A stretch of 64,000 nucleotides of DNA, taken from NCBI GenBank assembly GCA_016184125.1, contig JACPDG010000043.1, forward strand, positions 15,882-79,881, in the 5' to 3' direction. Source of the DNA: Candidatus Rokuibacteriota bacterium (GTDB taxonomy: Bacteria > Methylomirabilota > Methylomirabilia > Rokubacteriales > CSP1-6). This document shows positions 27,619-62,629 of the stretch, one piece after another (position 1 is the first letter of the stretch; each line of letters begins with the position of its first letter). A model generated the notes under the pieces. It was not told the origin of the DNA, did no database searches, and saw only the letters and a list, made by a program, of their open reading frames with translations. Both the position numbers and the translations under genes were made by a program.

Positions 27619-29292
27619 TCACTCCTCCACCGGCATCGTGACAGGTTCCCCGGCCCCGTAGAAGTAAGCGCCGCGTCCCGCCGCACCGCCGACGACGGCG
27701 AGCTGGAAGCACCCGGGGTCCTCGACGACCGGGATCGGGACGTCGGGATGGTCGCGCAGCCAGCCGAGCTCGGGATGCGCCGCAGCCATCGCCTTCGGCT
27801 CCTTGTTGAGCGCCAGCGTGCGGAACGGCACGCGGGCCGCCCGGTACATCGCCTGCTGGATCTCGGCCCGGCCCCAGCCTGCGCGCGCGAAGATCTGCGC
27901 GTGCTCGGGGCAGACGAAGAGCGTGTTCTGTTCCTTCTCCTCCGTCCTGGAGCGCGGATCCGCGCGTCGGCCGATGAGCCAGAGCCCCGTGCCGACCTGC
28001 GCCACGTTCGTCGCCGCCGTCGCGTAGACCTGGACCAGGTCCTCGGGCGCGGTCGAGCGGAAGTCGTAGAGCTCGCACATCCCGTAGGCGAAGTGCACCG
28101 TCACCGTGCTCGCGTCCCGTGCGAAGCCCCGCGTGACGTGGTATGGCTCCCACGGGCTCCCGGCCTCGTTCTCGGCGCAGCAGAGGCTGTACTTGAGCGG
28201 CGAGCCGATCGTGTCCATGTCGGACACGCCGACGTACGTGTGTCCGACGTTCATCATCGTGAGCCGCACGGCGCGCCCGAGCACCGTGTTCGACGCCGAG
28301 GGCGCGCCGGGACCGAGCGCGCACAGGCCCGCATTGAGACGGGCGGCGCGGGCACGCGGGCCGTTGGCGAGCACGAGCGGCGCGTGCGGGCCGGTCGACA
28401 TCGCCTTGTTCCTGAGATACATCTTCGGCTCGGCGAGGCAGCGGACCGCGGCGATGAGCAGCGGCAGGTGCTCCGGACCGCAGCCGGCCATGACCGCGCT
28501 GATCGCGAGCTTCTCGACGGTCGCGACACCGAAACCCGGCTCGAGCACGGCGATGGTCTCGCCGGGCGCCCGCTTCGTCCCGGCGAGCATCGCATCCACG
28601 GCACGGCGCGTCGGCGGCACGATGGGAAAGCCGTCCGACCAGCCGCGCGCCAGGAGCTCGCGCTGCATGCGGTCCAGAGCCTCCAGGACATCGTCTCCCT
28701 CGAACGAGAGCACGTCGGGCAGCACCGGGCACACGGGCTCCGAGCGCTCGACCTCGACCGGTCGCGTCAACCCGGCGACGACCTGCTCGACGGCGCCGTC
28801 GACCATCCGGTGAACGTCTTCGGGACGCTGGTTCGTGAACGGCAGCGGGACGACCGCGAGCGGCAGCCCCGGGAGTCCGAAGCTCGCCGCGCTGCGCTCG
28901 GCGTCGTGGACGAACGTCGCGGACGTGAACAGCACGGTCGGGCGGCCGCGCCGCTCGAGCTCGACCATGTCGTGGGCACCCCACGACGTGCACGAGCCTC
29001 AGTCGGCTGTCGTCCCGACGACCGCGTCGACCTCGGCGGCGATCCGGTCGGCGTCTTCCGGCGTGGCGTGCCGCATGATGAATCCGACCGACCCGGTGTA
29101 CCGGCGGAACGTCGTGTCCGGGAACCGCTCGCGCAGGAGCGCTTCGGTGCGGTCGAGCGCCGCGTCGCCGCCGCCCTTCATGTTCCAGTAGAGCCCGACC
29201 GTGAGGCCACGGAGGTCTCGCGGGCGCGGCGCGGGCTTCACCGAGCGCTCGACGGTCGTGGCCACGGGATTCAGGATCTCGACGCGTGCCAT
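27619..29292 (-). CDS. UGSC-family selenoprotein fused in-frame to a ~450-aa C-terminal domain; in-frame TGA (Sec) at 28999-29001
   Basis: Track ORFs 28999-29331 and 27619-28968 share one frame and are separated only by a TGA. Minus-strand read: ...VVGTTAD-TGA-GGC-TCG-TGC = U-G-S-C. AGGAGG ribosome-binding site before the ATG at 29292. SECIS-like hairpin downstream. Confidence 0.7.
28969..28987 (-). promoter_or_regulatory. bacterial SECIS-like hairpin GUCGUGGG-GUG-CCCACGAC, 11 nt downstream of the UGA
   Basis: 8-bp perfect stem, G/U-containing apical loop, spacing typical of bSECIS. Confidence 0.5.
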
Positions 29293-29302
29293 GCGGACCT
29301 CC

Positions 29303-29378
29303 TTCATGGGGGGACTATCGAAGCCCCCCAATCCCCCCGCGCTCGGAGCCCCCCGGCAAAGCCGTGGCGCTCCTCGAC
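29303..29378 (+). repeat. family A repeat, copy A9
   Basis: TTCATGGGGGGACTATCGAAGCCCCCCAATCCCCCCGCGCTCGGAGCCCCCCGGCAAAGCCGTGGCGCTCCTCGACC. Confidence 0.85.
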
Positions 29379-29408
29379 CACCGCCTTCGGTTCACGGGCT
29401 CTCACCCC

Positions 29409-29484
29409 CTTCATGGGGGGACTATCGAAGCCCCCCAATCCCCCCGCGCTCGCACACGCCCCGGGGAACCCGGGGCGTGGCTCG
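29409..29484 (+). repeat. family A repeat, copy A10 (tandem with A9)
   Basis: TTCATGGGGGGACTATCGAAGCCCCCCAATCCCCCCGCGCTCGCACACGCCCCGGGGAACCCGGGGCGTGGCTCGA. Confidence 0.85.
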
Positions 29485-29485
29485 A

Positions 29486-30685
29486 TTACACCACAGCCTT
29501 CTTCGCCCGGAGCGAAGCGATGTCGGCGTCCGAGTAGCCGAGCTCCGCGAGGACCTCGTCGGTGTGCTCGCCGCGCATCGGCGCGTGCCGGCGGATGTCC
29601 GGGTCGATCTCCGAGAACGACACGGGGAATCCGACGACCGGGATGTCGCCGAGCTTGGGGTGCGCCATCCGGCGGATGACGGCGCGGCCCTGCGTCTGCG
29701 GATCCGACAGCGCCTGGCCGACGCTGTTGACCGGCGTGGCGGGCACGCCCGCATCGTCGAGGAGCTTGATGAGCGCGTCGCGGTCGTACCCCGCGATCGC
29801 GTCGCCGACGAGCTGCTCCAGCTCCGTGCGGTGCTTCACGCGCTCGATGTTGACCGCGAAGCGCGGGTCGTCGGCCATCCACTCGAGCCCGAGCGCCGTG
29901 GCGAGGCGCCGCCACAACCGGTCGTTCGCGCCCGCGATGAAGACCCACTGGCCGTCGGCGCAGCGGAAGTTGCGGTACGGAGACAGGGCCGGGTGCGCGG
30001 AGCCGAGCGCCTGGGGGACTTTTCCGACCAGCAGGTAGCCTTCGGCCTGGAAGTTCATGAGCCCGACGGCGGTCTCGAGCAGCGAGCCGTCCACGCGCTG
30101 GCCGCGGCCCGTCTGCGCGCGGTGGTGCAGCGCGGACACGACGCCGAGCGCGCACAGGATCCCGGTCGTGAGGTCCAGGAACGACACGCCGCACCGCACC
30201 GGTGGACCGCCCGGCTCACCGGTGATCGACATGATCCCGCTGAACGCCTGCATGAGCGCCTCGTACCCGGCACCCGCGGCGCGGGGCCCGGTGCGCCCGA
30301 AGGCCGAGACCGAGCAGTAGATCAACCGCGGGTTCATCGCCGAGAGCGCGTCGTACCCGAGACCGAACTCCTCCATGGTCCCCGTGCGGAAGTTCTCGAT
30401 CAGCACGTCGGCGTCCCGGGCGAGCTTCCGGACGATCTCGACGCCTTCCGGCGTCTTCAGGTCGACCGAGATGCCGCGCTTGTTGCGATTGTTCACGAGG
30501 TACCCCGCCGCCTCGCCGTCCTTGTGGGGCGGCCAGGTGCGGGACTCGTCGCCGACCGTGGGGTCCTCGATCTTGATGACGTCGGCGCCGAGATCGCCGA
30601 GGAGCGCGCCGCAGAACGGGCCGGCGAGGACGCGGGAGCAGTCGATGACGCGGAGACCGGCGAGAGGCGGGCGGTTCGTGGCCAT
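29486..30685 (-). CDS. family III CoA-transferase (CaiB/BaiF/Frc-like)
   Basis: MATNRPPLAGLRVIDCSRVLAGPFCGALLGDLGADVIKIE...; 399 aa. Confidence 0.9.
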   Translation of the reverse strand: MATNRPPLAGLRVIDCSRVLAGPFCGALLGDLGADVIKIEDPTVGDESRTWPPHKDGEAAGYLVNNRNKRGISVDLKTPEGVEIVRKLARDADVLIENFRTGTMEEFGLGYDALSAMNPRLIYCSVSAFGRTGPRAAGAGYEALMQAFSGIMSITGEPGGPPVRCGVSFLDLTTGILCALGVVSALHHRAQTGRGQRVDGSLLETAVGLMNFQAEGYLLVGKVPQALGSAHPALSPYRNFRCADGQWVFIAGANDRLWRRLATALGLEWMADDPRFAVNIERVKHRTELEQLVGDAIAGYDRDALIKLLDDAGVPATPVNSVGQALSDPQTQGRAVIRRMAHPKLGDIPVVGFPVSFSEIDPDIRRHAPMRGEHTDEVLAELGYSDADIASLRAKKAVV

Positions 30686-30721
30686 GGGCGCTACTATAGC
30701 GTTTCCGGTTACTATGAGCAC

Positions 30722-34137
<3,416 letters not shown>

Positions 34138-34138
<1 letters not shown>

Positions 34139-36831: not shown

Positions 36832-37797
36832 TCAGTGGTGGCAGGCGACGCAGTCGAGCGGAGCGTTGCGGTCAGGCTTCGTGTTCTCGCGCCGGTGGCA
36901 GTCCAGGCACCAGCCCATCGTCAAGGGGCGCGGATCCGGTCGCAGACCGACGAGATGGAGAATGTCGCTGGCCAGCTGCGGGCCGACGTCGGCGCCCACG
37001 ACCCGCATCCGCTCGATCGGGCCGTGACACGTCTGGCACTCGACACGCGCCCGCACGTGGGCCTTGTGGGGGAAGTACGTGAACTCCGGCATCTTGAAGA
37101 TCCGGATCCACGGGATCGGCTCCTGCCGCGCCCAGTAGTCGTGGACCTTGCGGATCTCGGGGTTGTCCGTCGCCCCGATGATCTTGTGGCAGCCCATGCA
37201 CCGCTCGACCGACGGCAGCCCCGCGTACTCGGAGCGTCGCGCCTCCGTGTGGCAGTACTGGCAGGCGATGTGGAACGAGCCGGCGTGCACGACGTGACTG
37301 AAGAAGATGGGCTGTCGCGGCGCGTTCGGCGGCGTGACGATCGGCTTGGCCGCGGCCGCCACGAACGGCGGGTCGGCGAGCGTCCGGATGTACCGGATCA
37401 CGCGGCGCACCTGGCCGTCTCCGAGGTACGCGGCGAACGCCGGCATCGTCGGTGCGAGCCCCTCGGCGGTGCCGCCGTTCAGGATCACGTTCGCCAGGAA
37501 CTCGTCCGGCAGCGGATTCATGATGCGGCCGTCGGTCAGATCCGCGGGCTTCGTGGCCAGAGCACCGGCCGAAGGCCCATCGCCGCGACCGCCTTCACCG
37601 TGGCAGGGGAGGCAATACTGCGCGTAGATCGCGCGGTCGGCCGGATCCCGAGCGGCCGGAGGCGCGGCGCTCACGCGCGCGCCGAGCAGACCACCGGCAA
37701 GAACCCCCAGCGCCAGCAGCCCGAGCGCCCACGCGCGTCGGGACGCGACGAACGCGCTACTGCTTGATGAGGTTCCGCCGGCGTTCGAGGTACGCAT
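36832..37797 (-). CDS. multiheme c-type cytochrome (6 CxxCH motifs; monoheme module plus pentaheme NrfB/ActA-like module)
   Basis: CLPCH, CQYCH, CMGCH, CQTCH, CLDCH and CVACH; signal peptide. Confidence 0.85.
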   Translation of the reverse strand: MRTSNAGGTSSSSSAFVASRRAWALGLLALGVLAGGLLGARVSAAPPAARDPADRAIYAQYCLPCHGEGGRGDGPSAGALATKPADLTDGRIMNPLPDEFLANVILNGGTAEGLAPTMPAFAAYLGDGQVRRVIRYIRTLADPPFVAAAAKPIVTPPNAPRQPIFFSHVVHAGSFHIACQYCHTEARRSEYAGLPSVERCMGCHKIIGATDNPEIRKVHDYWARQEPIPWIRIFKMPEFTYFPHKAHVRARVECQTCHGPIERMRVVGADVGPQLASDILHLVGLRPDPRPLTMGWCLDCHRRENTKPDRNAPLDCVACHH

Positions 37798-38866
37798 GGC
37801 GGACAGCGCTGTACATGTCGATCACCGTTTCCTCGAAGCCCTGGAAGAGCTCGAGGTTCAGCGACCGCTCGTTGACAGTGTCCGTCACCTTGACCGCGAT
37901 GCGCTCGATGATTCCGATCGGGACGAACCACCCGAGCGGATCGAACAGCGAGTCGACGCCCCGGCCGATGCCGTCCCGCACCGTCATCGGCTCCATCAGC
38001 GGCAGCACGAGATAGGGCCCGGGCCGCGCTCCGTACACACCGAGGGTCTGACCGAAGTCCTCGCGGCTCTTCTCGATCTCGGCGCTCCTGCCGACGTCGA
38101 ACAGGCCGCCGATACCGACGGTCGAGTTCAGCACGAACCGGCCCAGTTCACGCCCCGCGCCGTCCCACTTCGCCTGGAGCAGGCTGTTCACCATGCGCTT
38201 GATCGCGCCGAGGTTGTCGAACGCGTTGCCGATCATTCGCTGGATCTCGTCGTGCACGACCCGGTCGTACGCCTTCGCCACCGGCTTCAGGACGTACCGG
38301 TCGAGCTTGCGGTTGAACTCGAACATCCTCTCGTTGAACGGCTCCCACGGATCGTACACCTCGACGTCGTACTCGTCGTCCTCGGCACTCCGCCTGGACT
38401 GCGCGACGATCATGGGAGCCGCGCCGGCGGCAGCCGGTGCGGTCAGCGCGGATGCGGCACTTTCGTCTGCGGGTCCCGGCCCGCCCTCCGCGACCGCGGA
38501 CGGAGCGTCGACCGCCGCGGGCGCAGCCTCGGCGACGAGCGCAGCGTCGACCGGAGGCTCACCGTCGCCCGTGGGGGGTGCGACGACCCGCGGCGCCTCG
38601 TCCACCGCGCCCGTCGCGCTCACCGCCGGCGCCGACTCGTCGCCGCTCAGGCGTGTGAGAACGTCAACGGATCCCGTCGACCGTGTCGTCTCGAGCCGTG
38701 GGCGTACCTCGGTGCGCGCGACGGCGGCGGGCGCCGCCGCGGGCACCGACATCGACCACGGCCCGTCAGCGCGGGCGACCGATGTCGCACGAAGTCCGTT
38801 ACCGACGGTGCCACATCCGGTGAGGGCAGCGAGCGTGAGGAGGACGACGACGAGAACCGGCAGCAT
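37757..38866 (-). CDS. MlaA/VacJ-family outer-membrane lipoprotein (phospholipid transport)
   Basis: MLPVLVVVLLTLAALTGC lipobox; long Ala/Pro-rich linker; C-terminal VacJ domain (DPWEPFNERMFEFNRKLDRYVLKPVAKAY...). Confidence 0.85.
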   Translation of the reverse strand: MLPVLVVVLLTLAALTGCGTVGNGLRATSVARADGPWSMSVPAAAPAAVARTEVRPRLETTRSTGSVDVLTRLSGDESAPAVSATGAVDEAPRVVAPPTGDGEPPVDAALVAEAAPAAVDAPSAVAEGGPGPADESAASALTAPAAAGAAPMIVAQSRRSAEDDEYDVEVYDPWEPFNERMFEFNRKLDRYVLKPVAKAYDRVVHDEIQRMIGNAFDNLGAIKRMVNSLLQAKWDGAGRELGRFVLNSTVGIGGLFDVGRSAEIEKSREDFGQTLGVYGARPGPYLVLPLMEPMTVRDGIGRGVDSLFDPLGWFVPIGIIERIAVKVTDTVNERSLNLELFQGFEETVIDMYSAVRHAYLERRRNLIKQ

Positions 38867-42485: not shown

Positions 42486-42537
42486 GCGCCGTGAGCCTAG
42501 CAGATCTCGCGGCGACACGGAAGCCGTGCAGCTCAGC

Positions 42538-43383
42538 TCAGCGCCCCTGAACGAATCGCGCCCTCGAGGGCCGTCCCGGGTTCCGCGGGTGCGTCCGCGC
42601 ACCCCCCGGGACGGCTCCGAGCGCTGGGGGCCGGGGGAGTCCGAGGGGGGCGTCAGCCCCCTTCGTGCGATGGTCGGGGGCCATGTCGGGGCCCCCCATG
42701 ATCTCAGTTCGAGCGACAATCGACCGCCGCGGCGGTCGATTGTCGCTCGAACTCTCAGACGTCACCCCGGCCCGCGTCCCACGACGGCGCACGCGGAACG
42801 CGCGCACCGCGCCGGCCAGGCGCACGCCGAGCAGCACGGCGAGGATGGCCGCGTACACGTACGGCTCGATGCGCCCGACCTTGGCGAGCCACATGAAGTG
42901 CAGCACGCCCAGCACGGCCGCGACGTACACGATGCGGTGGAGCCGGCGCCATGCCCGCGCGCCGAGACGCTTCACCATCCCGGACGTCGACGTCGCGGCG
43001 AGGAGGACGAGCAGCGCGAGCGCCGAGACGCCGACCGTGATGTACGGCCGCTTCACGATGTCCGCGCCCATCTGCGCCCACGCGAAGAAGTGGTCGAGCA
43101 CGACCCAGACGAGGAAGTGCAGCGACACGTAGAAGAACGCGAACAGCCCGAGGAGGCGGCGGAGGATCAGCGGCCAGCCGATGCCGAGCACGAGACGCAG
43201 CGGTGTGAGGGCGAGGCTCGCGAGCAGCATCCGCATGCCCCAGCGACCCAGCGTGTCGGTGACGAAGTCGATGGGGTTCGCGGTCAGGTCGCCCGTCCAC
43301 GCGCGCCAGGCCAGCAGCGCGAGCGGTACCAGGCAAGCGCCCCAGACCAGGGTCTTCAGCAGGATTCGCCCGCGTCGCGTCAC
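42538..43383 (-). CDS. msrQ: MsrQ (heme-binding membrane subunit of the MsrPQ methionine sulfoxide reductase), with ~70-aa repeat-encoded C-terminal extension
   Basis: Six-TM ferric-reductase-like core (FFYVSLHFLVWVVLD...HRIVYVAAVLGVLHFMWL). The ORF stays open through B2 and A13 to a stop at 42538. Confidence 0.75.
   Translation of the reverse strand: MTRRGRILLKTLVWGACLVPLALLAWRAWTGDLTANPIDFVTDTLGRWGMRMLLASLALTPLRLVLGIGWPLILRRLLGLFAFFYVSLHFLVWVVLDHFFAWAQMGADIVKRPYITVGVSALALLVLLAATSTSGMVKRLGARAWRRLHRIVYVAAVLGVLHFMWLAKVGRIEPYVYAAILAVLLGVRLAGAVRAFRVRRRGTRAGVTSESSSDNRPPRRSIVARTEIMGGPDMAPDHRTKGADAPLGLPRPPALGAVPGGARTHPRNPGRPSRARFVQGR
42560..42702 (-). repeat. family A repeat-derived block A13 (two partial reverse copies including the GGGTGCGTCCGCGCACC module)
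   Basis: CCCGGGTTCCGCGGGTGCGTCCGCGCACCCCCCGGG...GGGGGCCATGTCGGGGCCCCCCATGATCTC. Confidence 0.65.
42707..42754. repeat. family B palindrome, copy B2
   Basis: AGTTCGAGCGACAATCGACCGCC-GC-GGCGGTCGATTGTCGCTCGAACT; carries a compensatory C-G change relative to B1 and B4. Confidence 0.8.
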
Positions 43384-43404
43384 GGCTCAGAGCCCGTAAA
43401 GCAA

Positions 43405-44379
43405 TCAGTAGTTCTTCTTGAGATCCATGCCTGCATAGAGCGAGGCCACCTGGTCCGCGTACCCGTTGAACATCAGCGTCTGCCGGCGGCGAAACTCGCC
43501 GATCCGCCGCTCCGTTGCCTGGCTCCACCGGGGGTGGTCCACCGACGGGTGCACGTTCGAGTAGAAGCCGTACTCCCGGGGTTGCGCCTTCGCCCACGCC
43601 GTCTGCGGCTGCTCGCTCACGAGCCGAATCCTGACGATCGACTTCGCGCTCTTGAAGCCGTACTTCCACGGCACCACGACGCGCACGGGCGCGCCGTTCT
43701 GATTCGGCAACACCTTGCCGTACATGCCGACGGTGAGCAGCGCCAGCGGGTGCATCGCCTCGTCGAGCCGGAGCCCCTCGACGTACGGCCAGTCGAGGCC
43801 CGACATGCTGAAGCCGAAGACCCCCTTCTTCTGCGCCGGGAACTGTTCCGGGTCGAGGAGCGTCTGGAACTCCACGAACTTCGCCTGGCCGGTCGGCGCC
43901 ACGCGCTTCAGGAGAGCGGACAGCGGGTAGCCGATCCACGGGATCACCATCGACCAGGCCTCGACGCAGCGGAGCGCGTACACGCGCTCCTCGAGCGGCG
44001 CCAGCCGGAGCAGCTCCTCGATGTCGAACGTCCCGGGCTTCGCGACGTGTCCCTCGACCACGACCTGCCAGGGCCGCGGCTTCAGCGTGCCGGCGAGCCG
44101 CGCGGGATCTTCCTTTTCGACGCCGAACTCGTAGAAGTTGTTGTACGTCGTCGCGGACTCGATCTTCGTCGGCGAATCGGCATGCCGGTACCTCGGGTTC
44201 GGCGCGGCCGGGAGGGCCGCGAGCTGCGACACGGGCGGCGGCGGACCGGCCTCCGCGCGCCCGGGGAACAGCGCGAGCGCGGCGGCGCCGGCGATCAGCT
44301 CGCGCCGGTTGAGATAGAGCCTCTCGTCCGTGACCTCCGACCATCGGAAGCGCGGCGCCTGGCGAATCAGCATCGACAA
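43405..44379 (-). CDS. msrP: MsrP (molybdopterin-dependent protein-methionine sulfoxide reductase catalytic subunit, YedY-like)
   Basis: Tat-type leader ([14 protein letters not shown]); sulfite-oxidase-fold Mo-binding core (YNNFYEFG...[14 protein letters not shown]). Confidence 0.9.
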
Positions 44380-44402
44380 CCTCCTGCTCTCGTCAGCTTC
44401 TC

Positions 44403-44450
44403 AGTTCGAGCAACCATCGACCGCCGCGGCGGTCGATGGTTGCTCGAGTT
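44403..44450. repeat. family B palindrome, copy B3
   Basis: TTCGAGCAACCATCGACCGCC-GCG-GCGGTCGATGGTTGCTCGAG, with a compensatory CC-GG pair. Lies between the response-regulator stop and the msrP start. Confidence 0.75.
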
Positions 44451-44451
44451 C

Positions 44452-45129
44452 TCACACGGCGAAACGGTAGCCCTGCGCGTGGACCGTCTGGATCCACACG
44501 GGATGATCGGGATCGGTCTCGAGCTTCTTCCGGAGCCTGAGCACGTGCGTGTCGACCGTCCGGGTCGTCGGGAACCGCTCGTACCCCCACACCTCGTCGA
44601 GCAGGCGCTCGCGCGTCAGCACGTCGCCACGGTGCTCGACGAGGTGGACGAGGAGATCGAATTCCTTGCGCGTCATCGCGAGCTCGCGTCCCGCCTTGAA
44701 CACGCGGCGAGCGCGCCGGTGGATCCGCACGTCGCCGAACTCCAGGTCCTGCGACTTCTCGCGCGGACCCGGCCGGCGCAGGACGGCGCGCACCCGCGCC
44801 AGCAGCTCCCGCAGGGAGAACGGCTTCGTGACGTAGTCATCGGCGCCGAGCTCGAGGCCCAGCACCCGGTCCATCTCCTCGCCGCGCGCCGAGAGCATGA
44901 TGACGGGCACCTCGATGCCCTTCTTCCTGAGCTCCCGGCACACGTCCCAGCCGCTCATGACGGGCATCATGATGTCGAGGACGACGAGATCCGGCGCCGC
45001 GCTCGCCGCGAGCGCCAGGGCGTCGGCGCCGTTCGTCGCGGTCAGTGTCTCGTATCCCTCGAAGCGCAGATTGTCCTCGAGGCCCCGCACGATCTCCGGC
45101 TCGTCGTCGACGATGAGGATGCGTGGCAT
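44452..45129 (-). CDS. OmpR-family response regulator
   Basis: MPRILIVDDEPEIV...winged-helix C-terminus (YRFAV). Confidence 0.9.
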   Translation of the reverse strand: MPRILIVDDEPEIVRGLEDNLRFEGYETLTATNGADALALAASAAPDLVVLDIMMPVMSGWDVCRELRKKGIEVPVIMLSARGEEMDRVLGLELGADDYVTKPFSLRELLARVRAVLRRPGPREKSQDLEFGDVRIHRRARRVFKAGRELAMTRKEFDLLVHLVEHRGDVLTRERLLDEVWGYERFPTTRTVDTHVLRLRKKLETDPDHPVWIQTVHAQGYRFAV

Positions 45130-45133
45130 CCGG

Positions 45134-46696
45134 CTACCCGTCGGGCTCGGTGTCATCGGAGGCCGGCACGACCGGCGTCGCGGGGAGCCAGAGCGTGAAG
45201 CGGCTGCCGCGTCCCGGCTCGCTCTTCACGGTCACGCGCCCGCCGTGCGCCTCCGCGACGTGGCGGACCAGCGCCAGGCCGACGCCGCTGCCGCGCCGGC
45301 CCTGCGTGTCGCTGCGTCCCACGCGATAGAACTTCTCGAAGATCCGGGACTGCTCCGCCGGCGCGACGCCGATGCCCTCATCCTCCACGCCGATCGCGAG
45401 ATGGTCGCCGACGATCGCGGCCTCGACGTGCAGCACGCGCCGGTCGGCCGAGTACTTGATCGCGTTGTCCACGAGGTTCGCGAGCGCCTGGCGGACGGCG
45501 TCGGCGTCCATCGTCACCTCGCCGAGCTCGGCCGCGACGCGCACGTCGACCTTGAAGCCGCCCTGCGCCAGCGGGTACGCGAACGCCTCGACGGTCTCCC
45601 GGACGAGCGGCTCCACGACCGTGGGCGCCATGTCGTAGCGCCGCCGCCCGCCCTCGATGCGCGAGAAATCGAGCACGTTGTCGATCAGGCGGGACAGGCG
45701 CTCCGTCTCGCGCGTGATCACGCGATAGTACTCCTGGCGCTGGGTCTCGCTGGTGAGCCGGCCCATCTCGAGCGTCTCGCCGAACATGCGGATCACGGAC
45801 AGCGGCGTCTTGAGGTCGTGCGACACGTTCGCGACGAAGTCGGCCTTGAGGCGGGCCATCTCGGTCTCGCGCCGCATGAGCCGCCACGTCGCCGCGATGC
45901 CCGCGACGAGGATCGCCACGAGCACGCCGAACGCGGCCGTGAAGATCGTGACCTGCCGGCGGATCGCGTCGCGCGGCGACCGCCCGGGCTCGGCGTACAT
46001 CGCGACCCGCCAGCGCGGCAGCTCGTCGCCGAACGCGACCGTGGCCACGGGCTCGGCGCCGGTCACCGCCGTGCGCGCGTACACGGTGCGATCCCGGTGG
46101 TCGAGCACGGCGGCGATCGTCGGCGCTTCCAGCCCGCCGAGCGTCTTCGCGAGGACCTCGCGCCGGAGCGCCTCGACGTTGCGGAAAAGCCCCGCGAGCA
46201 CGGGTGCGCCGTCGCGGAGCCGGAGGACCGCGGCCACGAGCACCCGGTCCCCGACGATGATCTGGCGCCGGCCCCCGCGCTCCCACAGCGCGCTCGGCAC
46301 CTCGGCTCGCAGCGTGCCGAACACGCGGGCGTCGTCGTCCCGCCACGCCCCCGGGTAGAGCAGCGCGCCGCCACGGTCGCACACGTAGAGACGGTCGACG
46401 AGCGGCGAGCCGGCGACCAGCGCGTCGAGCGCGGCCGGGTCGCCGGCCGCGGCCCCCACATGCTGCGCGAGCTGCTGGAACAGGTCGTCCTCGGCGTGCC
46501 GCAGCATCATGACGACCTTCTCGGCCGCCATCGACGCCATGTCGCGCGCCTGCTCGCGAAAGAGCAGCTCCGCGGAGCGCTCCCACTGGCGGAGCGACAC
46601 GTACCCGAGCACCGCCACGATCGCGGCCGGGACGGCGATCGCGAGCAGCGCGAACGTCGAGAATCGCCCGAGCGACGCCGCCATGCGCAGGGTCAT
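45134..46696 (-). CDS. sensor histidine kinase with a periplasmic sensor domain
   Basis: Two TM helices flank a ~270-aa extracytoplasmic region; HisKA (ANVSHDLKTPL) plus HATPase_c. ATGA overlap with the upstream redoxin gene. Confidence 0.85.
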   Translation of the reverse strand: MTLRMAASLGRFSTFALLAIAVPAAIVAVLGYVSLRQWERSAELLFREQARDMASMAAEKVVMMLRHAEDDLFQQLAQHVGAAAGDPAALDALVAGSPLVDRLYVCDRGGALLYPGAWRDDDARVFGTLRAEVPSALWERGGRRQIIVGDRVLVAAVLRLRDGAPVLAGLFRNVEALRREVLAKTLGGLEAPTIAAVLDHRDRTVYARTAVTGAEPVATVAFGDELPRWRVAMYAEPGRSPRDAIRRQVTIFTAAFGVLVAILVAGIAATWRLMRRETEMARLKADFVANVSHDLKTPLSVIRMFGETLEMGRLTSETQRQEYYRVITRETERLSRLIDNVLDFSRIEGGRRRYDMAPTVVEPLVRETVEAFAYPLAQGGFKVDVRVAAELGEVTMDADAVRQALANLVDNAIKYSADRRVLHVEAAIVGDHLAIGVEDEGIGVAPAEQSRIFEKFYRVGRSDTQGRRGSGVGLALVRHVAEAHGGRVTVKSEPGRGSRFTLWLPATPVVPASDDTEPDG

Positions 46697-47217
46697 CCGG
46701 ACTCCGCGAGCAGCGTCGTGATCATCGCTTCGGTGTCGGCGTACGCGCCCTCGCCGACGTGCCGATACCGCACCACGCCCCGCTTGTCGACGAGGACGAG
46801 CGTCGGCCACGCCCAGACGCCGTAGCGCTTCCACACGGTGTGGTCGTTGTCCTGCAGCACCGGGTACGGGATCCCGAGCCGCTGGCGCGCGTCGGCGACC
46901 TTGTCCGCCGGCTTCTCCCAGAAGAACTCCGGCGTGTGCACCCCGATGATCGTCAGGCCTCGGCTCGTGTACCGCTCGTGCCAGCCCCGCAACTGCGGGA
47001 TCACGTTTCGACAGTTGATTCACCCGTATGTCCAGAACTCGAGCAGCACCACGCGCCCGCGCATCGCGGCGAGCGTCATGGGCGGCCCCCCGATCCATGG
47101 CCCGGCGGTCAGCTCGGGCGCGACGGCGCCCGGTCGAATCGTCTCTCCGCCGACCACGCCGGGACCGCTCGCGACCCACACGAGCCCGGCGACGGCGGCC
47201 ATCACGATCAGGCGCAT
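46693..47217 (-). CDS. secreted thioredoxin-fold redoxin (TlpA/AhpC-TSA-like) selenoprotein candidate; in-frame TGA at 47020-47022 gives a U-x-x-C redox motif
   Basis: Track ORFs 47020-47217 and 46693-47004 share one frame. Minus-strand read: ...RVVLLEFWTYG-TGA-INCRNVIPQLRGWHERYTSRGLTIIGVHTPEF... Signal peptide at the N-terminus. Confidence 0.7.
46986..46999 (-). promoter_or_regulatory. SECIS-like hairpin CCCGC-AGUU-GCGGG, 20 nt downstream of the UGA (possibly part of a larger CGUG...CACG structure)
   Basis: Short stem with G/U in the loop; weaker than the other two. Confidence 0.35.
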
Positions 47218-47366
47218 GGCCCCGCGCTCCGCTCACGCATCGTGTCGCTCCTGCCCCTCCGTGCGCCGAGTCGCCGCTGGTCGCGCCCGGCCAAGACGGC
47301 GCCTGCGCGAGCCGCGCATCAGGTCACGGTCGAGCAGCCGACGTCGCGCGATCGTCATTCGCCGGG

Positions 47367-48035
47367 TCATCCCGCCACGCCGCTCGTCGTCATCGCGCGC
47401 AGGTGTTCGACGAGCATGCGCAACCGATCCGGCGCGGTGCGCCGCAGCGCCTCGACCCGTGACGCGAGCGCGTCGGTCGTCCGAGCGAGATTCCTCGCCA
47501 CCGACTCCGGTGTGCCGAACGTCGCTCCGAGCGATCCCGGATCGACCCGGCTCGTGTAGGCGATGAGCGCGCCGTCGCCAAGCGGCGTGACTCGGAGCGC
47601 GCCCTCCAGCCGCCGCGCGTATCGAGCGGTCAGCAGCGCCCACCGCGCCACCCAGCCGCCGCTCTCGCGCGTAACCGTCAGGGTCACCGTGTAGCGCTCG
47701 TTCGGCCCGGCGATCTCGTACTCGTAGAAGACCCGGAACACGTCGGGCGCCTCGCGTCGGAGCACGCGGCTGACCACCAGGTCAGGAACCCACTCCCGCT
47801 GGCGGGCGACGTCGGCGTAGAGCGCCATGACCTCCGCCGGCGTCGCCGCCGTGCGCCGGTACGCGATGATCTCCGGCCATGGGAAGCCGGGCACCGCCCG
47901 GCGCTCGATCACCGTCTCGCCTCGTTCGACCCGGTGCCGGACGTCGGCGTCGAGCATCGCGTCGGTGTCGGCGCTCGACGCGCCCGCACCCGTCGCCATG
48001 ACGGCGACGAGCGCGAGCGCAGCGAGCGCGTGGTG
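47367..48035 (-). CDS. SRPBCC-superfamily (polyketide cyclase/START-like) protein
   Basis: ...FPWPEIIAYRRTAATPAEVMALYADVARQREWVPDLVVSRVL...YEYEIAGPNERYTVTLTV... Start uncertain (TTG at 48033 or an internal ATG). Confidence 0.55.
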   Translation of the reverse strand, partial: HHALAALALVAVMATGAGASSADTDAMLDADVRHRVERGETVIERRAVPGFPWPEIIAYRRTAATPAEVMALYADVARQREWVPDLVVSRVLRREAPDVFRVFYEYEIAGPNERYTVTLTVTRESGGWVARWALLTARYARRLEGALRVTPLGDGALIAYTSRVDPGSLGATFGTPESVARNLARTTDALASRVEALRRTAPDRLRMLVEHLRAMTTSGVAG

Positions 48036-48048
48036 GAGCAAGACGGCC

Positions 48049-48579
48049 TCAGCTCGCGAATCCCTGCGGGGCGAGCTGGAACGCCTTCGCGAACTTGCTC
48101 GCGAAGGTCTGGTACCCCACGATGAACGTGAGCTCGAGGATCTCCGCCTCCGAGAAGTGCTCGCGGACCCTCGCGTAGCACGCGTCCGACACGTCGCGGT
48201 CGTCCCGCACGATCTCGGTCGCGAACGACAGGGCCGCCCGCTCGCGCTCGGCGAACGCCTCGCTCGTCTCGAACGCGTCGAGCGCGGCGAGCTTCTCGAC
48301 CGGGACACCGGCCTTCACGCCGACGGCGTGACGGATGTCCATTCAGTACGCGGCCCGGTAGAGGCTCGCGACGTGCAGCTGGAGCATCGCGCGGAGCTCG
48401 CGGTCGATCCTGCCGAACCACTCGATCGAGCCCCAGAGCCCGCCGATGCCGAGCATCAGCGGCACGCGGTGGGCCATGATCTTCTCGGGTGTCGGCACGG
48501 CGCCGAAGAGCCGCTCGCCCACCCTGTAGAACGCCCTCACGGCCAGGCCCGGTCGGTCGATCTCGGAGATGCGCTGCAT
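48049..48579 (-). CDS. AhpD-like / carboxymuconolactone decarboxylase (CMD) family selenoprotein candidate; in-frame TGA at 48343-48345
   Basis: Track ORFs 48343-48579 and 48049-48342 are contiguous in one frame. Read: ...LHVASLYRAAY-TGA-MDIRHAVG... aligns with the CMD redox motif (second Cys of CxxC replaced by U, His four residues downstream). C-terminal FSEAEILELTFIVGYQTF is typical of the CMD family. Confidence 0.7.
48316..48330 (-). promoter_or_regulatory. SECIS-like hairpin CACGCC-GUC-GGCGUG, 12 nt downstream of the UGA
   Basis: Perfect 6-bp stem, GUC loop. Confidence 0.45.
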
Positions 48580-48589
48580 GCTGGACCTC

Positions 48590-48805
48590 CTATTTCTTGT
48601 CCATGCCGCCCTTGTCCATCATCGCCTTGTCCTTCTCCATCGTGGTCTTGTCGCCCGGCATCATCCCCTTCTCGCCCTTCATGGTCCCCGCGTCGGACTT
48701 CATCTCCTTCTGCATCATGGCCTCGCCAGACATCGTGCCAGCACATCCGCCGACCGCAACCGCCAGCGCGACACCCGCCACCGCTGCCGTCCATCGCTTC
48801 GTCAT
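48590..48805 (-). CDS. small Met/Lys-rich lipoprotein (71 aa)
   Basis: MTKRWTAAVAGVALAVAVGGC lipobox, then M-x-K/G-rich repeats (EAMMQKEMKSDAGTMKGEKGMMPGDKTTMEKDKAMMDKGGMDKK). Confidence 0.45.
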   Translation of the reverse strand: MTKRWTAAVAGVALAVAVGGCAGTMSGEAMMQKEMKSDAGTMKGEKGMMPGDKTTMEKDKAMMDKGGMDKK

Positions 48806-50643: not shown

Positions 50644-51145
50644 CGCACCGCCACGGTAGCCAGCAAACGGGGGGCGGTCAAGCGCCGGCCAGCGGCGGCC
50701 GGCAATGCGCCCACGGCCGCGCCGCCTCGAGCTGCGCGGCCAGCCGCAAGAGCGTCGCCTCGTCACCGAACCGCGCCATGAACTGGACGCCGATCGGCAC
50801 ACCGTCGGTGTTCCGGGAGAGCGGCACGGACATCGCAGGCTGGCCCGTCACGTTGGCGAACGCACGACCAGCTCGCTGTGCTCACTCGGCACGAAGTCCG
50901 CGAGGAAGTCGCTCGCCTCCGTGAGCGGAACCCCGGCGTACTCGGCGAGGAGGTCCTTCAGCAGGAACGGTACGCCGGCGAACGGCGCGTCCACGACCGG
51001 CCCCGCCGCCGCCCGGCGCGCGAGGTCGTACATCGGCGTGACGACGGCGTTGAGCGAGGGGTTCACCCGCTCGATCCGGGCGATCGTCGCCTCGAGCAGC
51101 TCGATCGCGCGGATCTCCTTCCGGCGGACTCATCGAGTCCCGGTC

Positions 51146-62581: not shown

Positions 62582-62629
62582 AGTTCGAGCCAACAATCGA
62601 CCGCCCGGCGGTCGATTGTTGCTCGAACT
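62582..62629. repeat. family B palindrome, copy B4
   Basis: AGTTCGAGCCAACAATCGACCGCC-CG-GCGGTCGATTGTTGCTCGAACT; ends 2 nt before the stop of the minus-strand lipoprotein gene. Confidence 0.8.

What the first reader, a model, noticed from the sequence alone, without database searches (positions are those of the whole stretch)
46693..47217. Secreted thioredoxin-fold redoxin with an in-frame TGA giving a U-x-x-C active site, leading a redoxin/HK/RR operon
Track ORFs 47020-47217 (65 aa) and 46693-47004 (103 aa) are in one frame with a TGA at 47020-47022. The minus-strand read is ...GRVVLLEFWTYG-TGA-ATC-AAC-TGT-CGA-AAC = ...EFWTYG-U-INC-RN... This is the classic TlpA/redoxin WxxCxxC context with the first Cys replaced by the stop, which is the usual position of Sec in thioredoxin-fold selenoproteins. 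The downstream sequence (GLTIIGVHTPEF, WPTLVLVD) continues the redoxin fold, and there is an N-terminal signal peptide. A small stem-loop, CCCGC-AGUU-GCGGG, lies 20 nt after the UGA. The gene's stop overlaps (ATGA) the start of a periplasmic-sensor histidine kinase (45134-46696), which is followed by an OmpR-type regulator (44452-45129). That arrangement suggests a redox-linked envelope signalling operon headed by a selenoprotein.
Basis: partly seen in the sequence, partly recalled or inferred. Interest (0 to 1): 0.8.

Follow-up and report, generated by a model that had tools for sequence, protein, structure and literature searches.

The report
Selenocysteine redoxin in methionine-repair operon
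The in-frame TGA is a genuine selenocysteine codon in a secreted thioredoxin-fold redoxin of a Rokubacteria genome; this is a known kind of selenoprotein, and here it sits with a sensor kinase, its regulator and the periplasmic methionine-sulfoxide reductase MsrPQ.

Summary
ORFs 47217..47020 and 47004..46693 (minus strand) form one 174-codon gene interrupted by TGA at 47022..47020.

- **Cys position:** the joined protein is an AhpC-TSA/Redoxin-family thioredoxin fold. Its best solved relative is the M. tuberculosis DipZ C-terminal domain (E 4e-36), and the TGA aligns with the first Cys of CxxC.
- **Not an error:** the same TGA is present in three independent read assemblies and in 75 of 80 species-representative genomes. 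Most are Rokubacteria/Methylomirabilota. The other five have TGC.
- **SECIS:** the hairpin CCCGC-AGUU-GCGGG (46999..46986) meets the published bacterial SECIS consensus. Its four codons show no synonymous variation in 75 Sec sequences, whereas neighbouring codons vary freely. Four of the five Cys forms have drifted synonymously and break it.
- **Other selenoprotein genes:** the window holds two more, a YciW/CMD-like gene (TGA 48345..48343) and a UGSC-family gene (TGA 29001..28999).
- **Operon:** It runs redoxin, kinase, regulator, MsrP, MsrQ, with a Met-rich lipoprotein upstream. This resembles known hypochlorite-defence modules, none of which is reported with a redoxin.

The selenoprotein is a new member of a known kind. 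Its conserved link to MsrPQ gives it a testable functional context.

The parts
46693..47217 (-). Selenoprotein gene: secreted DipZ-C/TlpA-type thioredoxin-fold redoxin, 174 codons, active site U-I-N-C
   Evidence: Searches give the sequence. Pfam AhpC-TSA scores 67.3 bits and Redoxin 48.9 bits, both above cutoff. PDB 2hyx DipZ matches at E 3.8e-36 over residues 33-172, spanning the TGA.
47020..47022 (-). In-frame UGA read as selenocysteine (first position of UxxC)
   Evidence: It aligns to the first Cys of FWAYSCINC in DipZ and of FWTYGC[IVA]NC in Cys homologues. TGA is present in L001-L004 and in 75 of 80 species loci.
46986..46999 (-). Bacterial SECIS hairpin: CCCGC / AGUU / GCGGG, apical loop 25 nt after the UGA
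   Evidence: Codons CCG-CAG-TTG-CGG are invariant at synonymous sites in 75 Sec sequences. They are broken by synonymous changes in 4 of 5 Cys forms. The hairpin alone folds at -9.9 kcal/mol. The consensus criteria come from PMC13188914.
47146..47217 (-). N-terminal export signal (MRLIVMAAVAGLVWVASGPGVVGG)
   Evidence: Inspection only. Homologues show a basic N-region, a 12-20 residue hydrophobic core and AxA-Q-type sites. No dedicated predictor was available.
45134..46696 (-). Sensor histidine kinase, two TM segments flanking a ~200-aa periplasmic domain; start overlaps the redoxin stop (ATGA)
   Evidence: HisKA and HATPase_c domains. It lies downstream of the redoxin in 62 of 80 loci. Conservation is shown.
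44452..45129 (-). OmpR/PhoB-family response regulator
   Evidence: NCBIfam PhoB/YycF-type hits at about 240 bits, below the equivalog cutoffs.
43405..44379 (-). MsrP, molybdopterin periplasmic methionine-sulfoxide reductase (likely start ATG 44373 after GGAGG)
   Evidence: NCBIfam NF003767 scores 468.8 bits against a cutoff of 207. Sequence.
42538..43386 (-). MsrQ, haem-binding membrane subunit (only the first ~200 residues of the ORF match)
   Evidence: NCBIfam NF003831 scores 162.9 bits against a cutoff of 130.
48590..48805 (-). Met-rich lipoprotein-like peptide (11 Met in 51 mature residues), MrpX-like
   Evidence: Similar peptides lie upstream of the redoxin in about 10 other species.
48049..48579 (-). 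Second selenoprotein gene: CMD/YciW-related, TGA at 48345..48343, hairpin CACGCC-GUC-GGCGUG at 48330..48316
   Evidence: NCBIfam 'YciW-related (seleno)protein' scores 106 bits, below its cutoff. Pfam CMD match.

Best explanation
The gene 47217..46693 encodes one 174-residue exported thioredoxin-fold thiol/selenol-disulfide oxidoreductase. It belongs to the DipZ-C-terminal/TlpA class, and its nucleophilic active-site residue is selenocysteine (FWTYG-U-INC). Shown or strongly supported: UGA 47022..47020 is recoded with the help of a bacterial SECIS hairpin 20 nt downstream, which lies inside the codons for Pro-Gln-Leu-Arg. By analogy with all bacterial SECIS elements, this hairpin would recruit SelB carrying Sec-tRNA(Sec). 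Shown: the gene is translationally coupled to a periplasmic-sensing histidine kinase. An OmpR-type regulator, msrP and msrQ follow it, and a Met-rich lipoprotein and a second selenoprotein (CMD/YciW-like) lie upstream. Inferred: the block is an envelope oxidant-defence and repair unit, most likely against hypochlorite-type oxidants. It would resemble HprSR-MsrPQ, SigF/NrsF-YedYZ-MrpX and UPEC C3564/5-C3566-68. In this reading the kinase and regulator switch the genes on, the Met-rich peptide and MsrPQ handle methionine oxidation, and the Sec-redoxin handles the thiol/selenol side. That could mean reducing oxidised periplasmic cysteines or reactive oxidants directly. It would need electrons from a membrane CcdA/DsbD-type reductase encoded elsewhere.
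For: - **Sec codon:** a continuous Pfam and PDB alignment runs across the TGA, which sits at the first Cys of CxxC.
- **Truncated relatives:** the closest database relatives (70-82% identity) are all truncated ORFs that begin just after the TGA. Full-length Cys forms are more distant, at 56-70%.
- **Recurrence:** TGA is present in three independent SRA assemblies (L001-L003), in L004 and in 75 of 80 species genomes.
- **Coding on both sides:** codons on both sides of the TGA keep their amino acids while varying synonymously.
- **SECIS:** the hairpin has a 4-nt loop with G at the second position, a 5-bp stem, 25 nt between UGA and loop, and folds at -9.9 kcal/mol. All four values fit the consensus quoted in PMC13188914.
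- **Nucleotide-level selection:** CCG-CAG-TTG-CGG has zero synonymous entropy in 75 Sec sequences. Nearby Pro, Leu, Arg, Gly and Val codons show 1.1-1.7 bits. TTG is a minority Leu codon at the other Leu positions examined (4 of 75 at codon -14).
- **Natural control:** four of five Cys forms changed these codons synonymously.
- **TGA is a normal stop here:** most window ORFs end in TGA.
- **More selenoprotein genes:** two further TGA-containing genes of named '(seleno)protein' families lie in the window, each followed by a hairpin with G first in its apical loop.
- **Lineage:** a Methylomirabilota MAG is reported to carry 63 predicted selenoprotein genes (PMC13188914).
- **Operon:** MsrP and MsrQ score above the NCBIfam cutoffs. 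Among 80 loci there are 28 redoxin-HK-RR-MsrPQ, 16 redoxin-MsrPQ and 3-4 MsrPQ-redoxin-HK-RR arrangements.
- **Met-rich peptides:** found in the window and in about 10 other loci.
- **Known analogues:** PMC10151825, PMC4436054 and PMC8550376.
Against: - No selA, selB, selD or tRNA-Sec gene lies in the 64-kb window or in the 60 loci scanned for tRNA genes. The machinery in this genome is therefore assumed, not shown.
- The hairpin is no more stable than shuffled sequence (z = -0.55). It shows invariance rather than compensatory covariation.
- No Rfam family matched.
- The functional role is inference from neighbourhood only. MsrP takes its electrons from MsrQ and needs no thioredoxin.
- No CcdA/DsbD-type electron donor is conserved nearby.
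- 24 of 80 loci have redoxin-HK-RR with no msrPQ within 4.5 kb or more.
- Met-rich peptides are present in only a minority of loci.
Confidence: 0.85

Rival explanations
1. The TGA is a sequencing or assembly error, or a recent nonsense mutation, and the gene is a broken Cys-redoxin pseudogene.
For: Public annotation treats the locus as a truncated 103-aa 'redoxin domain-containing protein' (P0015). TGA differs from TGC or TGT by one base.
Against: An identical TGA appears in three independent read assemblies and in 75 of 80 species. Amino-acid conservation with synonymous variation is seen on both sides. A dedicated invariant hairpin is present.
Confidence: 0.01
2. The UGA terminates translation. 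Two products are made: a 65-residue exported peptide, and a C-terminal fragment made by re-initiation.
For: Gene callers find start codons shortly after the TGA. These are GTG or ATG at the next codon in some relatives, and GTG five codons later in the window.
Against: The codon after TGA is ATC in 55 and TAC in 14 of 75 sequences, and neither is a start codon. One thioredoxin fold spans the junction, and the C-terminal piece would lack strand beta-1 and the nucleophile. The fragment would also lack the export signal.
Confidence: 0.02
3. The UGA is read through, but by something other than Sec. Examples are Cys charged on tRNA-Sec, or near-cognate Trp or Cys insertion.
For: The selenium machinery was not seen in the window. 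The sequence alone cannot tell which residue is inserted.
Against: The hairpin matches the SelB-type SECIS consensus. Cys is what replaces the position when the TGA is lost. The phylum is reported to be selenoprotein-rich. Three such genes lie in one window.
Confidence: 0.04
4. The selenoprotein is real, but its job is the classical TlpA/ResA/CcmG one: reducing apocytochrome c or copper-site cysteines during respiratory-complex assembly. On this view its position next to msrPQ and the kinase is incidental.
For: The best NCBIfam hits are ResA, DsbE, StoA and TlpA models. A multihaem cytochrome c gene lies in the window at 36832..37821.
Against: All those models score far below their equivalog cutoffs, for example ResA at 55.7 against 170. 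No ccm, res or sco genes are adjacent. Adjacency to msrPQ and/or the kinase holds in 78 of the 80 species loci, in several gene orders.
Confidence: 0.12
5. The Sec-redoxin is the primary oxidant sensor. It would pass its oxidation state to the translationally coupled kinase, as in a peroxidase-relay system.
For: The ATGA/GTGA overlap with the kinase start recurs in many loci. Selenols react very fast with oxidants (general chemistry).
Against: The kinase's periplasmic domain has no conserved Cys: 13 of 45 have none, and the window's Cys position is variable. 16 species keep redoxin-msrPQ with no kinase at all.
Confidence: 0.1

Closest known systems
[quoted passage not shown] Source: table in PMC13188914, citing Zhang & Gladyshev 2005-2008 and Peng et al. 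2016.
   Same: Thioredoxin fold, Sec at the first position of UxxC, the same Pfam families, a SECIS hairpin just downstream, and Cys-containing homologues. Operonic pairing of Prx-like with AhpD-like selenoproteins has also been reported, as seen here with the CMD/YciW-like neighbour.
   Different: I could not retrieve the catalogue's representative sequences, so identity with one of these families is likely but not shown. The catalogue describes their functions as largely uncharacterised. It mentions no link to MsrPQ, a two-component system or Met-rich peptides.
C-terminal thioredoxin-like domain of Mycobacterium tuberculosis DipZ (PDB 2hyx, 5cyy). The plant SOQ1 and human NHLRC2 Trx-like domains follow next.
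   Same: Best sequence match (E 3.8e-36 over 140 residues). It shares the FW-x-Y-x-C-I-N-C motif, GVHTPEF, the WP cis-Pro loop and an extracytoplasmic location.
   Different: DipZ has Cys rather than Sec. It is fused to a CcdA-like membrane electron transporter and a further C-terminal domain. The protein here stands alone with its own signal peptide.
Regulator-controlled MsrPQ oxidant-defence modules: E. coli HprSR-MsrPQ, Azospira SigF/NrsF-YedY1Z1-MrpX, Brucella BcrS/AbcS-BcrXQP, UPEC C3564/C3565-C3566-C3568.
   Same: A dedicated envelope-stress regulator next to msrP-msrQ, and in a subset a secreted Met-rich sacrificial peptide.
   Different: The texts of PMC4436054 and PMC8550376 contain no mention of 'thioredoxin', and I know of no report of a redoxin or selenoprotein in the E. 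coli HprSR or Brucella BcrXQP modules. The regulator here is not an HprR orthologue (151.8 bits against a cutoff of 353). The kinase has a larger periplasmic domain that matches no known family.
Extracytoplasmic thioredoxin-like partners of MsrA/B: the N-terminal domain of Neisseria PilB (PDB 2h30, 2fy6) and, from my own knowledge, the pneumococcal Etrx lipoproteins with CcdA and MsrAB2.
   Same: A secreted or anchored TlpA-like redoxin genetically tied to extracytoplasmic methionine-sulfoxide repair. These chains appear among the PDB hits.
   Different: In those systems the redoxin is the obligatory electron donor of thiol-based MsrA/B. MsrP is a molybdoenzyme fed by MsrQ, so the same donor role is not expected here. 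Those proteins also use Cys, not Sec.

Membership tests
Bacterial selenoprotein gene (SelB/SECIS-dependent UGA recoding) | In-frame UGA at a position occupied by a catalytic Cys in homologues | tested here: met
   It aligns to the first Cys of CxxC in DipZ and in full-length Cys homologues. Five of 80 species have TGC at this codon.
Bacterial selenoprotein gene (SelB/SECIS-dependent UGA recoding) | Protein-coding conservation continues in the same frame on both sides of the UGA | tested here: met
   Low amino-acid entropy with high synonymous entropy at codons -14..-1 and +14..+31 in 75 sequences.
Bacterial selenoprotein gene (SelB/SECIS-dependent UGA recoding) | bSECIS consensus: 3-9 nt apical loop, 4-16 bp upper stem, G in the first two loop positions, 16-37 nt from UGA to loop, MFE <= -7.5 kcal/mol (PMC13188914) | tested here: met
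   Loop AGUU, 5-bp G+C stem, 25 nt spacing, hairpin at -9.9 kcal/mol. The nucleotides are invariant in Sec forms only.
Bacterial selenoprotein gene (SelB/SECIS-dependent UGA recoding) | selA, selB, selC (tRNA-Sec) and selD present in the same genome | not testable with these tools
   None lies in the window, and no tRNA gene was found in the 60 loci scanned (L005-L064). The rest of the genome is not available. Literature reports Sec use in the phylum.
Bacterial selenoprotein gene (SelB/SECIS-dependent UGA recoding) | Selenium demonstrated in the protein | not testable with these tools
   Needs mass spectrometry or 75Se labelling.
TlpA/ResA/DipZ-C-type thioredoxin-fold thiol-disulfide oxidoreductase (Pfam AhpC-TSA/Redoxin/Thioredoxin_8) | Domain match above the curated cutoff | tested here: met
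   AhpC-TSA 67.3 against 26, Redoxin 48.9 against 26.6, Thioredoxin_8 44.4 against 27.
TlpA/ResA/DipZ-C-type thioredoxin-fold thiol-disulfide oxidoreductase (Pfam AhpC-TSA/Redoxin/Thioredoxin_8) | C/U-x-x-C motif and conserved cis-Pro loop | tested here: met
   U66-I-N-C69. W137-P138 is invariant and T139 nearly invariant in 43 homologues.
TlpA/ResA/DipZ-C-type thioredoxin-fold thiol-disulfide oxidoreductase (Pfam AhpC-TSA/Redoxin/Thioredoxin_8) | Extracytoplasmic location (signal peptide or N-terminal anchor) | tested here: inconclusive
   Signal-peptide-like N-termini with AxA-Q sites are seen across homologues by eye. No predictor was run.
ResA / DsbE(CcmG) / TlpA / StoA equivalogs (NCBIfam) | Score at or above the equivalog cutoff | tested here: not met
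   ResA 55.7 against 170, DsbE 39.3 against 123, TlpA 32.3 against 230, StoA 36.9 against 210, WAxxUGC_long 44.4 against 300.
Peroxiredoxin proper (AhpC/TSA) | PxxxTxxC/U peroxidatic motif | tested here: not met
   The sequence is L-E-F-W-T-Y-G-U, with Leu rather than Pro at -7. The second Cys at +3 is the thioredoxin-type arrangement.
Regulator-controlled MsrPQ envelope oxidant-defence module | Adjacent msrP and msrQ | tested here: met
   MsrP 468.8 against 207, MsrQ 162.9 against 130.
Regulator-controlled MsrPQ envelope oxidant-defence module | Dedicated envelope-sensing regulator in the same block | tested here: met
   A kinase with a periplasmic domain plus an OmpR-type regulator lies between the redoxin and msrP. 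The regulator is not an HprR orthologue (151.8 against 353).
Regulator-controlled MsrPQ envelope oxidant-defence module | Secreted Met-rich sacrificial peptide (MrpX-like) | tested here: met
   Window 48590..48805 has 11 Met in 51 mature residues and a lipobox. About 10 other loci have one. MrpX is about 20% Met.
Regulator-controlled MsrPQ envelope oxidant-defence module | Induction by hypochlorite or peroxide, and protection from it | not testable with these tools
   Needs expression and phenotype data.

The most novel reading that the evidence does not exclude
The Sec-redoxin is an integral working part of a Methylomirabilota version of the MsrPQ reactive-chlorine/oxidant defence. It would be a periplasmic selenol enzyme that detoxifies hypochlorite, chloramines or sulfenic acids catalytically, or recycles the Met-rich peptide or MsrP substrates. 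This would add a selenium-based arm to a system so far known only with molybdenum and haem. It would also give the first physiological role to one of the many uncharacterised thioredoxin-fold bacterial selenoproteins.
Probability: 0.35. Interest if true: 0.6.

Novelty: new member of a known kind. Interest (0 to 1): 0.4.

Why it matters
Public annotation splits or truncates this gene. P0015, for example, is recorded as a 103-aa 'redoxin domain-containing protein', so the active-site half of the enzyme is lost in dozens of genomes. Recognising the Sec codon restores a complete secreted redoxin.

More usefully, the recent review of prokaryotic selenoproteomes says the functions of thioredoxin-fold bacterial selenoproteins 'remain largely uncharacterized'. 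This family has a strongly conserved genomic partner set: MsrPQ, a two-component system and sometimes a Met-rich sacrificial peptide. That partner set points to periplasmic oxidant defence and can be tested directly.

The contrast between Sec and Cys forms is also a clean natural experiment. It shows an RNA signal embedded in coding sequence that decays once the UGA is lost.

Tried and rejected
- **Rfam and tRNA scans:** the Rfam scan of the window found nothing. ARAGORN found no tRNA or tRNA-Sec in the window or in 60 loci.
- **Selenium machinery:** Pfam scans of 47 proteins (window ORFs plus the joined CMD protein) found no SelA, SelB or SelD.
- **Hairpin stability:** it is not significant against shuffles (z = -0.55). 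I therefore rest the SECIS case on synonymous-site invariance and the Sec/Cys contrast.
- **Promoters and terminators:** the scan of 42300-48800 found nothing usable.
- **Palindrome as operator:** I considered the 42-nt perfect palindrome between the regulator and msrP as an operator or terminator. I rejected this because related copies occur at three other intergenic sites in the window, so it is a REP-like repeat.
- **Cys/Sec relay to the kinase:** I considered a relay from the redoxin to a periplasmic Cys of the kinase and rejected it, because that Cys is not conserved.
- **Conserved electron donor:** I looked for a conserved CcdA/DsbD gene by clustering all flank ORFs and found none.
- **Other in-frame stop junctions:** those at 50848 (amidase remnant followed by fumarase), 54506 (ThiS-like followed by FTHFS), 5788, 24079 and 56468 are simply adjacent genes or use non-TGA stops.
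- **Unavailable papers:** Haft & Tolstoy 2025 on selenoprotein neighbourhoods was not held. Deng et al. 2026 on groundwater MAG selenoproteomes did not turn up in the library search.
Full report
**1. The observation**

Read on the minus strand, an ORF starts at ATG 47217 and runs to TGA 46695..46693. It has a single in-frame TGA at 47022..47020...GRVVLLEFWTYG-TGA-ATC-AAC-TGT-CGA-AAC.... The two mechanically listed ORFs, 47020-47217 (65 aa) and 46693-47004 (103 aa), are the two halves of this frame. The stem-loop CCCGC-AGUU-GCGGG lies at 46999..46986 and starts 20 nt after the UGA. The stop of the gene overlaps the ATG of the next ORF (GGATGA).

The only slip is the name of the motif, which is W-x3-U-x2-C.

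**2. One protein, with the TGA at the catalytic Cys**

With Cys written in place of the stop, the 174-residue product matches three Pfam families across residues 30-158, which spans the junction:
- AhpC-TSA, 67.3 bits
- Redoxin, 48.9 bits
- Thioredoxin_8, 44.4 bits

The 65-residue piece alone matches nothing.

Against solved structures, the best hit is the C-terminal thioredoxin-like domain of M. tuberculosis DipZ (2hyx, E 3.8e-36, residues 33-172). There FWAYSCINC aligns with FWTYG[U]INC, so the TGA is the N-terminal, nucleophilic Cys of CxxC. Next come the Trx-like domains of SOQ1 and NHLRC2, followed by TlpA/ResA/DsbE-type proteins.

The NCBIfam equivalogs for ResA, DsbE, TlpA and StoA are all far below cutoff. 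The protein therefore belongs to the class but to none of those named orthologous groups. It is not a peroxiredoxin in the strict sense, because position -7 is Leu and not the Pro of PxxxTxxC.

**3. Not an error: comparative evidence**

A search of 5.8 billion proteins identified the source as a Candidatus Rokubacteria MAG. P0015 is 99% identical and is annotated as a 103-aa 'redoxin domain-containing protein'. The closest relatives (70-82% identity) are all 103-112-residue ORFs that begin at V/M-N-C or V/M-I-P-Q, immediately after the TGA position. Full-length FWTYGC[IVA]NC proteins are more distant, at 56-70%.

The exact window sequence, TGA included, occurs in three independent Logan assemblies of different sequencing runs (L001-L003). 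A JGI relative with 80% identity has TGA at the same codon (L004).

A scan of one genome per GTDB species returned 80 loci. Most are Rokubacteria/Methylomirabilota. A few are labelled Binatia, Deltaproteobacteria, Limnocylindria, Deferrimicrobiaceae or Acidobacteriota. Seventy-five have TGA and five have TGC (L016, L029, L035, L042, L049).

In 75 distinct Sec sequences, the codons on both sides keep their amino acids while varying synonymously. Examples are Val -10, Thr -3, Gly +21, Val +27 and Pro +30, each with amino-acid entropy 0 and synonymous entropy 1.1-1.6 bits. Both halves are therefore translated in this frame under purifying selection.

TGA is also the ordinary stop of most genes in the window, so there is no global reassignment.

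**4. The SECIS element**

The review PMC13188914 gives the bacterial consensus:
- apical loop of 3-9 nt
- upper stem of 4-16 bp
- a G in the first two loop positions, usually followed by G or U
- 16-37 nt between the UGA and the loop
- MFE <= -7.5 kcal/mol

The hairpin here has loop A-G-U-U, a 5-bp G+C stem, 25 nt of spacing and folds at -9.9 kcal/mol on its own. It meets every criterion.

Its stability is not unusual for 71% G+C sequence (z = -0.55 against shuffles), so stability is not the argument. The argument is selection at the RNA level. The four codons that form it are CCG (75/75), CAG (74/75), TTG (73/75) and CGG (75/75). They have zero synonymous entropy. Other Pro, Leu and Arg codons a few positions away are mixed: Pro +30 is CCG 50, CCC 22, CCT 3; Leu -14 is CTG 42, CTC 19, TTG 4; Arg -11 is CGC 37, CGG 32. 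TTG is a minority Leu codon at those other positions. The only three departures fall in the loop (CAG to CGG in L015, TTG to GTG in L020 and L084) and leave the stem intact.

The Cys forms are the natural control. They keep the amino acids Pro-Gln-Leu-Arg, but four of the five have changed the codons:
- L029: CCC CAG CTG CGC
- L035 and L049: CCT CAG CTG CGC
- L042: CTG

L016 still has the hairpin and may be a recent conversion. There is no compensatory covariation, because the stem never varies.

**5. Two more selenoprotein genes in the window**

*CMD/YciW-like gene.* ORFs 48579..48343 (78 aa) and 48342..48049 (97 aa) are one frame joined by TGA 48345..48343...LHVASLYRAAY-U-MDIRHAVGV....
- The joined protein matches Pfam CMD. 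It also matches the NCBIfam model 'YciW-related (seleno)protein' at 106 bits, below its equivalog cutoff.
- The TGA and a hairpin CACGCC-GUN-GGCGUG 12 nt downstream are conserved in five other species. Only the third loop base varies.

*UGSC-family gene.* A further TGA at 29001..28999 gives ...TTAD-U-GSC....
- The product matches 'UGSC family (seleno)protein' at 101.9 bits and Pfam UGSC.
- A strong hairpin with a GUG loop follows the TGA.

Three such genes in 64 kb fit the report that a Methylomirabilota MAG carries 63 predicted selenoprotein genes (PMC13188914). The Sec machinery itself (selA, selB, selD, tRNA-Sec) is not in the window and could not be sought elsewhere in the genome.

**6. 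The operon**

Downstream of the redoxin lie four genes:
- a histidine kinase (46696..45134; HisKA and HATPase_c; two transmembrane segments around a ~200-residue periplasmic domain with no Pfam match)
- an OmpR/PhoB-type regulator (45129..44452)
- MsrP (44379..43405; 468.8 bits against a cutoff of 207)
- MsrQ (43386..; 162.9 bits against a cutoff of 130)

Upstream lie three more:
- an SRPBCC protein (48041..47367), found in few relatives
- the CMD/YciW-like selenoprotein
- a 71-residue lipoprotein-like peptide (48805..48590) whose mature part is 22% methionine

The 80 species loci fall into these arrangements:

| Arrangement | Loci |
|---|---|
| redoxin-HK-RR-MsrP-MsrQ | 28 |
| redoxin-MsrP-MsrQ, no kinase | 16 |
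| MsrP-MsrQ-redoxin-HK-RR | 3-4 |
| redoxin-HK-RR, no msrPQ within 4.5 kb or more | 24 |
| cut by a contig end, or other | remainder |

All but one of the Cys forms fall in the class without nearby msrPQ. Met-rich secreted peptides sit just upstream of the redoxin in about ten species. No CcdA/DsbD-type gene is conserved nearby.

**7. How it most likely works**

*Shown or strongly supported.* UGA 47022..47020 is decoded as Sec with the help of the downstream hairpin. The product is an exported UxxC thioredoxin-fold oxidoreductase. Its gene is translationally coupled to a sensor kinase and belongs to a block with MsrPQ.

*Inferred from established systems.* Three known systems pair an envelope-stress regulator with MsrPQ, two of them with a sacrificial Met-rich peptide, to cope with hypochlorite or peroxide:
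- E. coli HprSR induces msrPQ in response to HOCl (PMC10151825).
- Azospira SigF/NrsF controls yedY1Z1-mrpX, where the Met-rich MrpX scavenges hypochlorite and is recycled by the MsrP homologue (PMC4436054).
- UPEC C3564/C3565 controls an MsrQ/MsrP/Met-rich-peptide operon (PMC8550376).

The block here has the same parts plus a Sec-redoxin. I therefore read it as an envelope oxidant-defence and repair unit in which the redoxin covers the thiol/selenol chemistry. That could be reduction of oxidised periplasmic cysteines or of the oxidant itself, with electrons from a membrane reductase encoded elsewhere. This last step is inference only.

MsrP does not need a thioredoxin. A simple Sec-to-Cys relay to the kinase is unlikely, because the kinase's periplasmic Cys is not conserved. 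Its most conserved periplasmic feature is a juxtamembrane helix carrying Met residues. That is reminiscent of Met-based sensing in HprS but is untested.

**8. Comparison with what is known, and novelty**

UxxC thioredoxin-fold selenoproteins are the commonest class of bacterial selenoprotein. Families named 'Redoxin family protein', 'Thiol-disulfide isomerase-like protein' and 'Prx-like thiol:disulfide oxidoreductase' are already catalogued. So is operonic pairing of Prx-like with AhpD-like selenoproteins. This gene is therefore a new, or possibly already listed, member of a known kind.

Full-text searches for selenocysteine with MsrP or MsrPQ returned only general reviews. The MrpX paper and the UPEC paper do not mention a thioredoxin. 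The conserved association of a Sec-redoxin with MsrPQ, a two-component system and Met-rich peptides therefore appears undescribed in the literature I could search. It offers a testable role for one of these otherwise uncharacterised selenoproteins.

**9. Verdict**

The finding is real and correctly interpreted. It is a mis-annotated selenoprotein gene with a well-supported SECIS element, in a selenoprotein-rich lineage. For a specialist the selenoprotein itself is expected. The operon context is the modestly new and useful part. Interest is 0.4. Confidence is about 0.85 overall: the Sec reading alone is higher, and the proposed physiological role is considerably lower.

Noticed in passing
window 48049..48579 (-), TGA at 48345..48343: A second split gene. 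ORFs of 78 and 97 aa are one CMD/YciW-related protein with an in-frame TGA (...SLYRAAY-U-MDIRH...) and a hairpin CACGCC-GUC-GGCGUG at 48330..48316. The TGA and hairpin are conserved in L017, L024, L044, L048 and L071.
   Followed up: yes
window 27619..29307 (-), TGA at 29001..28999: A third candidate selenoprotein. The motif D-U-G-S-C matches NCBIfam 'UGSC family (seleno)protein' (101.9 bits, cutoff 125) and Pfam UGSC. A strong hairpin with a GUG apical loop follows the TGA. The frame continues for about 400 residues beyond the UGSC domain, into a region with no family match.
   Followed up: partly
window 48590..48805 (-): A 71-residue lipoprotein-like peptide (lipobox AVGG-C) with 11 Met in 51 mature residues. 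It resembles the hypochlorite-scavenging MrpX/BcrX peptides. Comparable Met/Lys/Asp-rich secreted peptides lie just upstream of the redoxin in L007, L020, L021, L051, L058, L059, L060, L078 and L083, and upstream of the CMD gene in L017 and L024.
   Followed up: partly
window 44406..44447; also 11195..11225, 42714..42745, 62591..62621: A perfect 42-nt palindrome (TCGAGCAACCATCGACCGC-CGCG-GCGGTCGATGGTTGCTCGA) lies between the regulator's stop and the msrP start. Related palindromes occur at three other sites (9 half-site matches against 1.2 expected). It looks like a REP-like dispersed intergenic repeat rather than a specific operator.
   Followed up: partly
window 50848..51129 (-): A 94-residue N-terminal remnant of an amidase sits directly before the fumarate hydratase alpha gene. 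The syntenic contig of a relative has a 360-residue amidase there. This is probably a deletion or pseudogene.
   Followed up: no
window 42538..43386 (-): The MsrQ ORF is 282 codons, but only the first ~200 match MsrQ (relatives are about 216 aa). The tail reads through one of the REP-like palindromes and overlaps the start of the M16 peptidase ORF. The true 3' end may be mis-set, or the stop may have been lost.
   Followed up: no
window 45134..46696 (-), residues ~35-240: The kinase's periplasmic domain matches no Pfam family and has no conserved Cys. Its best-conserved stretch is a juxtamembrane helix SLRQW..SAELLFREQARDMA.MAAEKV.M with conserved Met residues.
   Followed up: partly
L032 4012..4995 (-) and five other redoxin-HK-RR loci without msrPQ: A secreted DsbA-like protein (FQCPFC motif) is encoded divergently about 1 kb upstream of the redoxin in six species of the sub-clade that lacks adjacent msrPQ.
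   Followed up: no
window 29192..34138 (+): The MetH (B12-dependent methionine synthase) reading frame is open for 1648 codons, but the domains begin only at residue ~529. The upstream part overlaps the UGSC gene on the opposite strand and is probably not coding.
   Followed up: no
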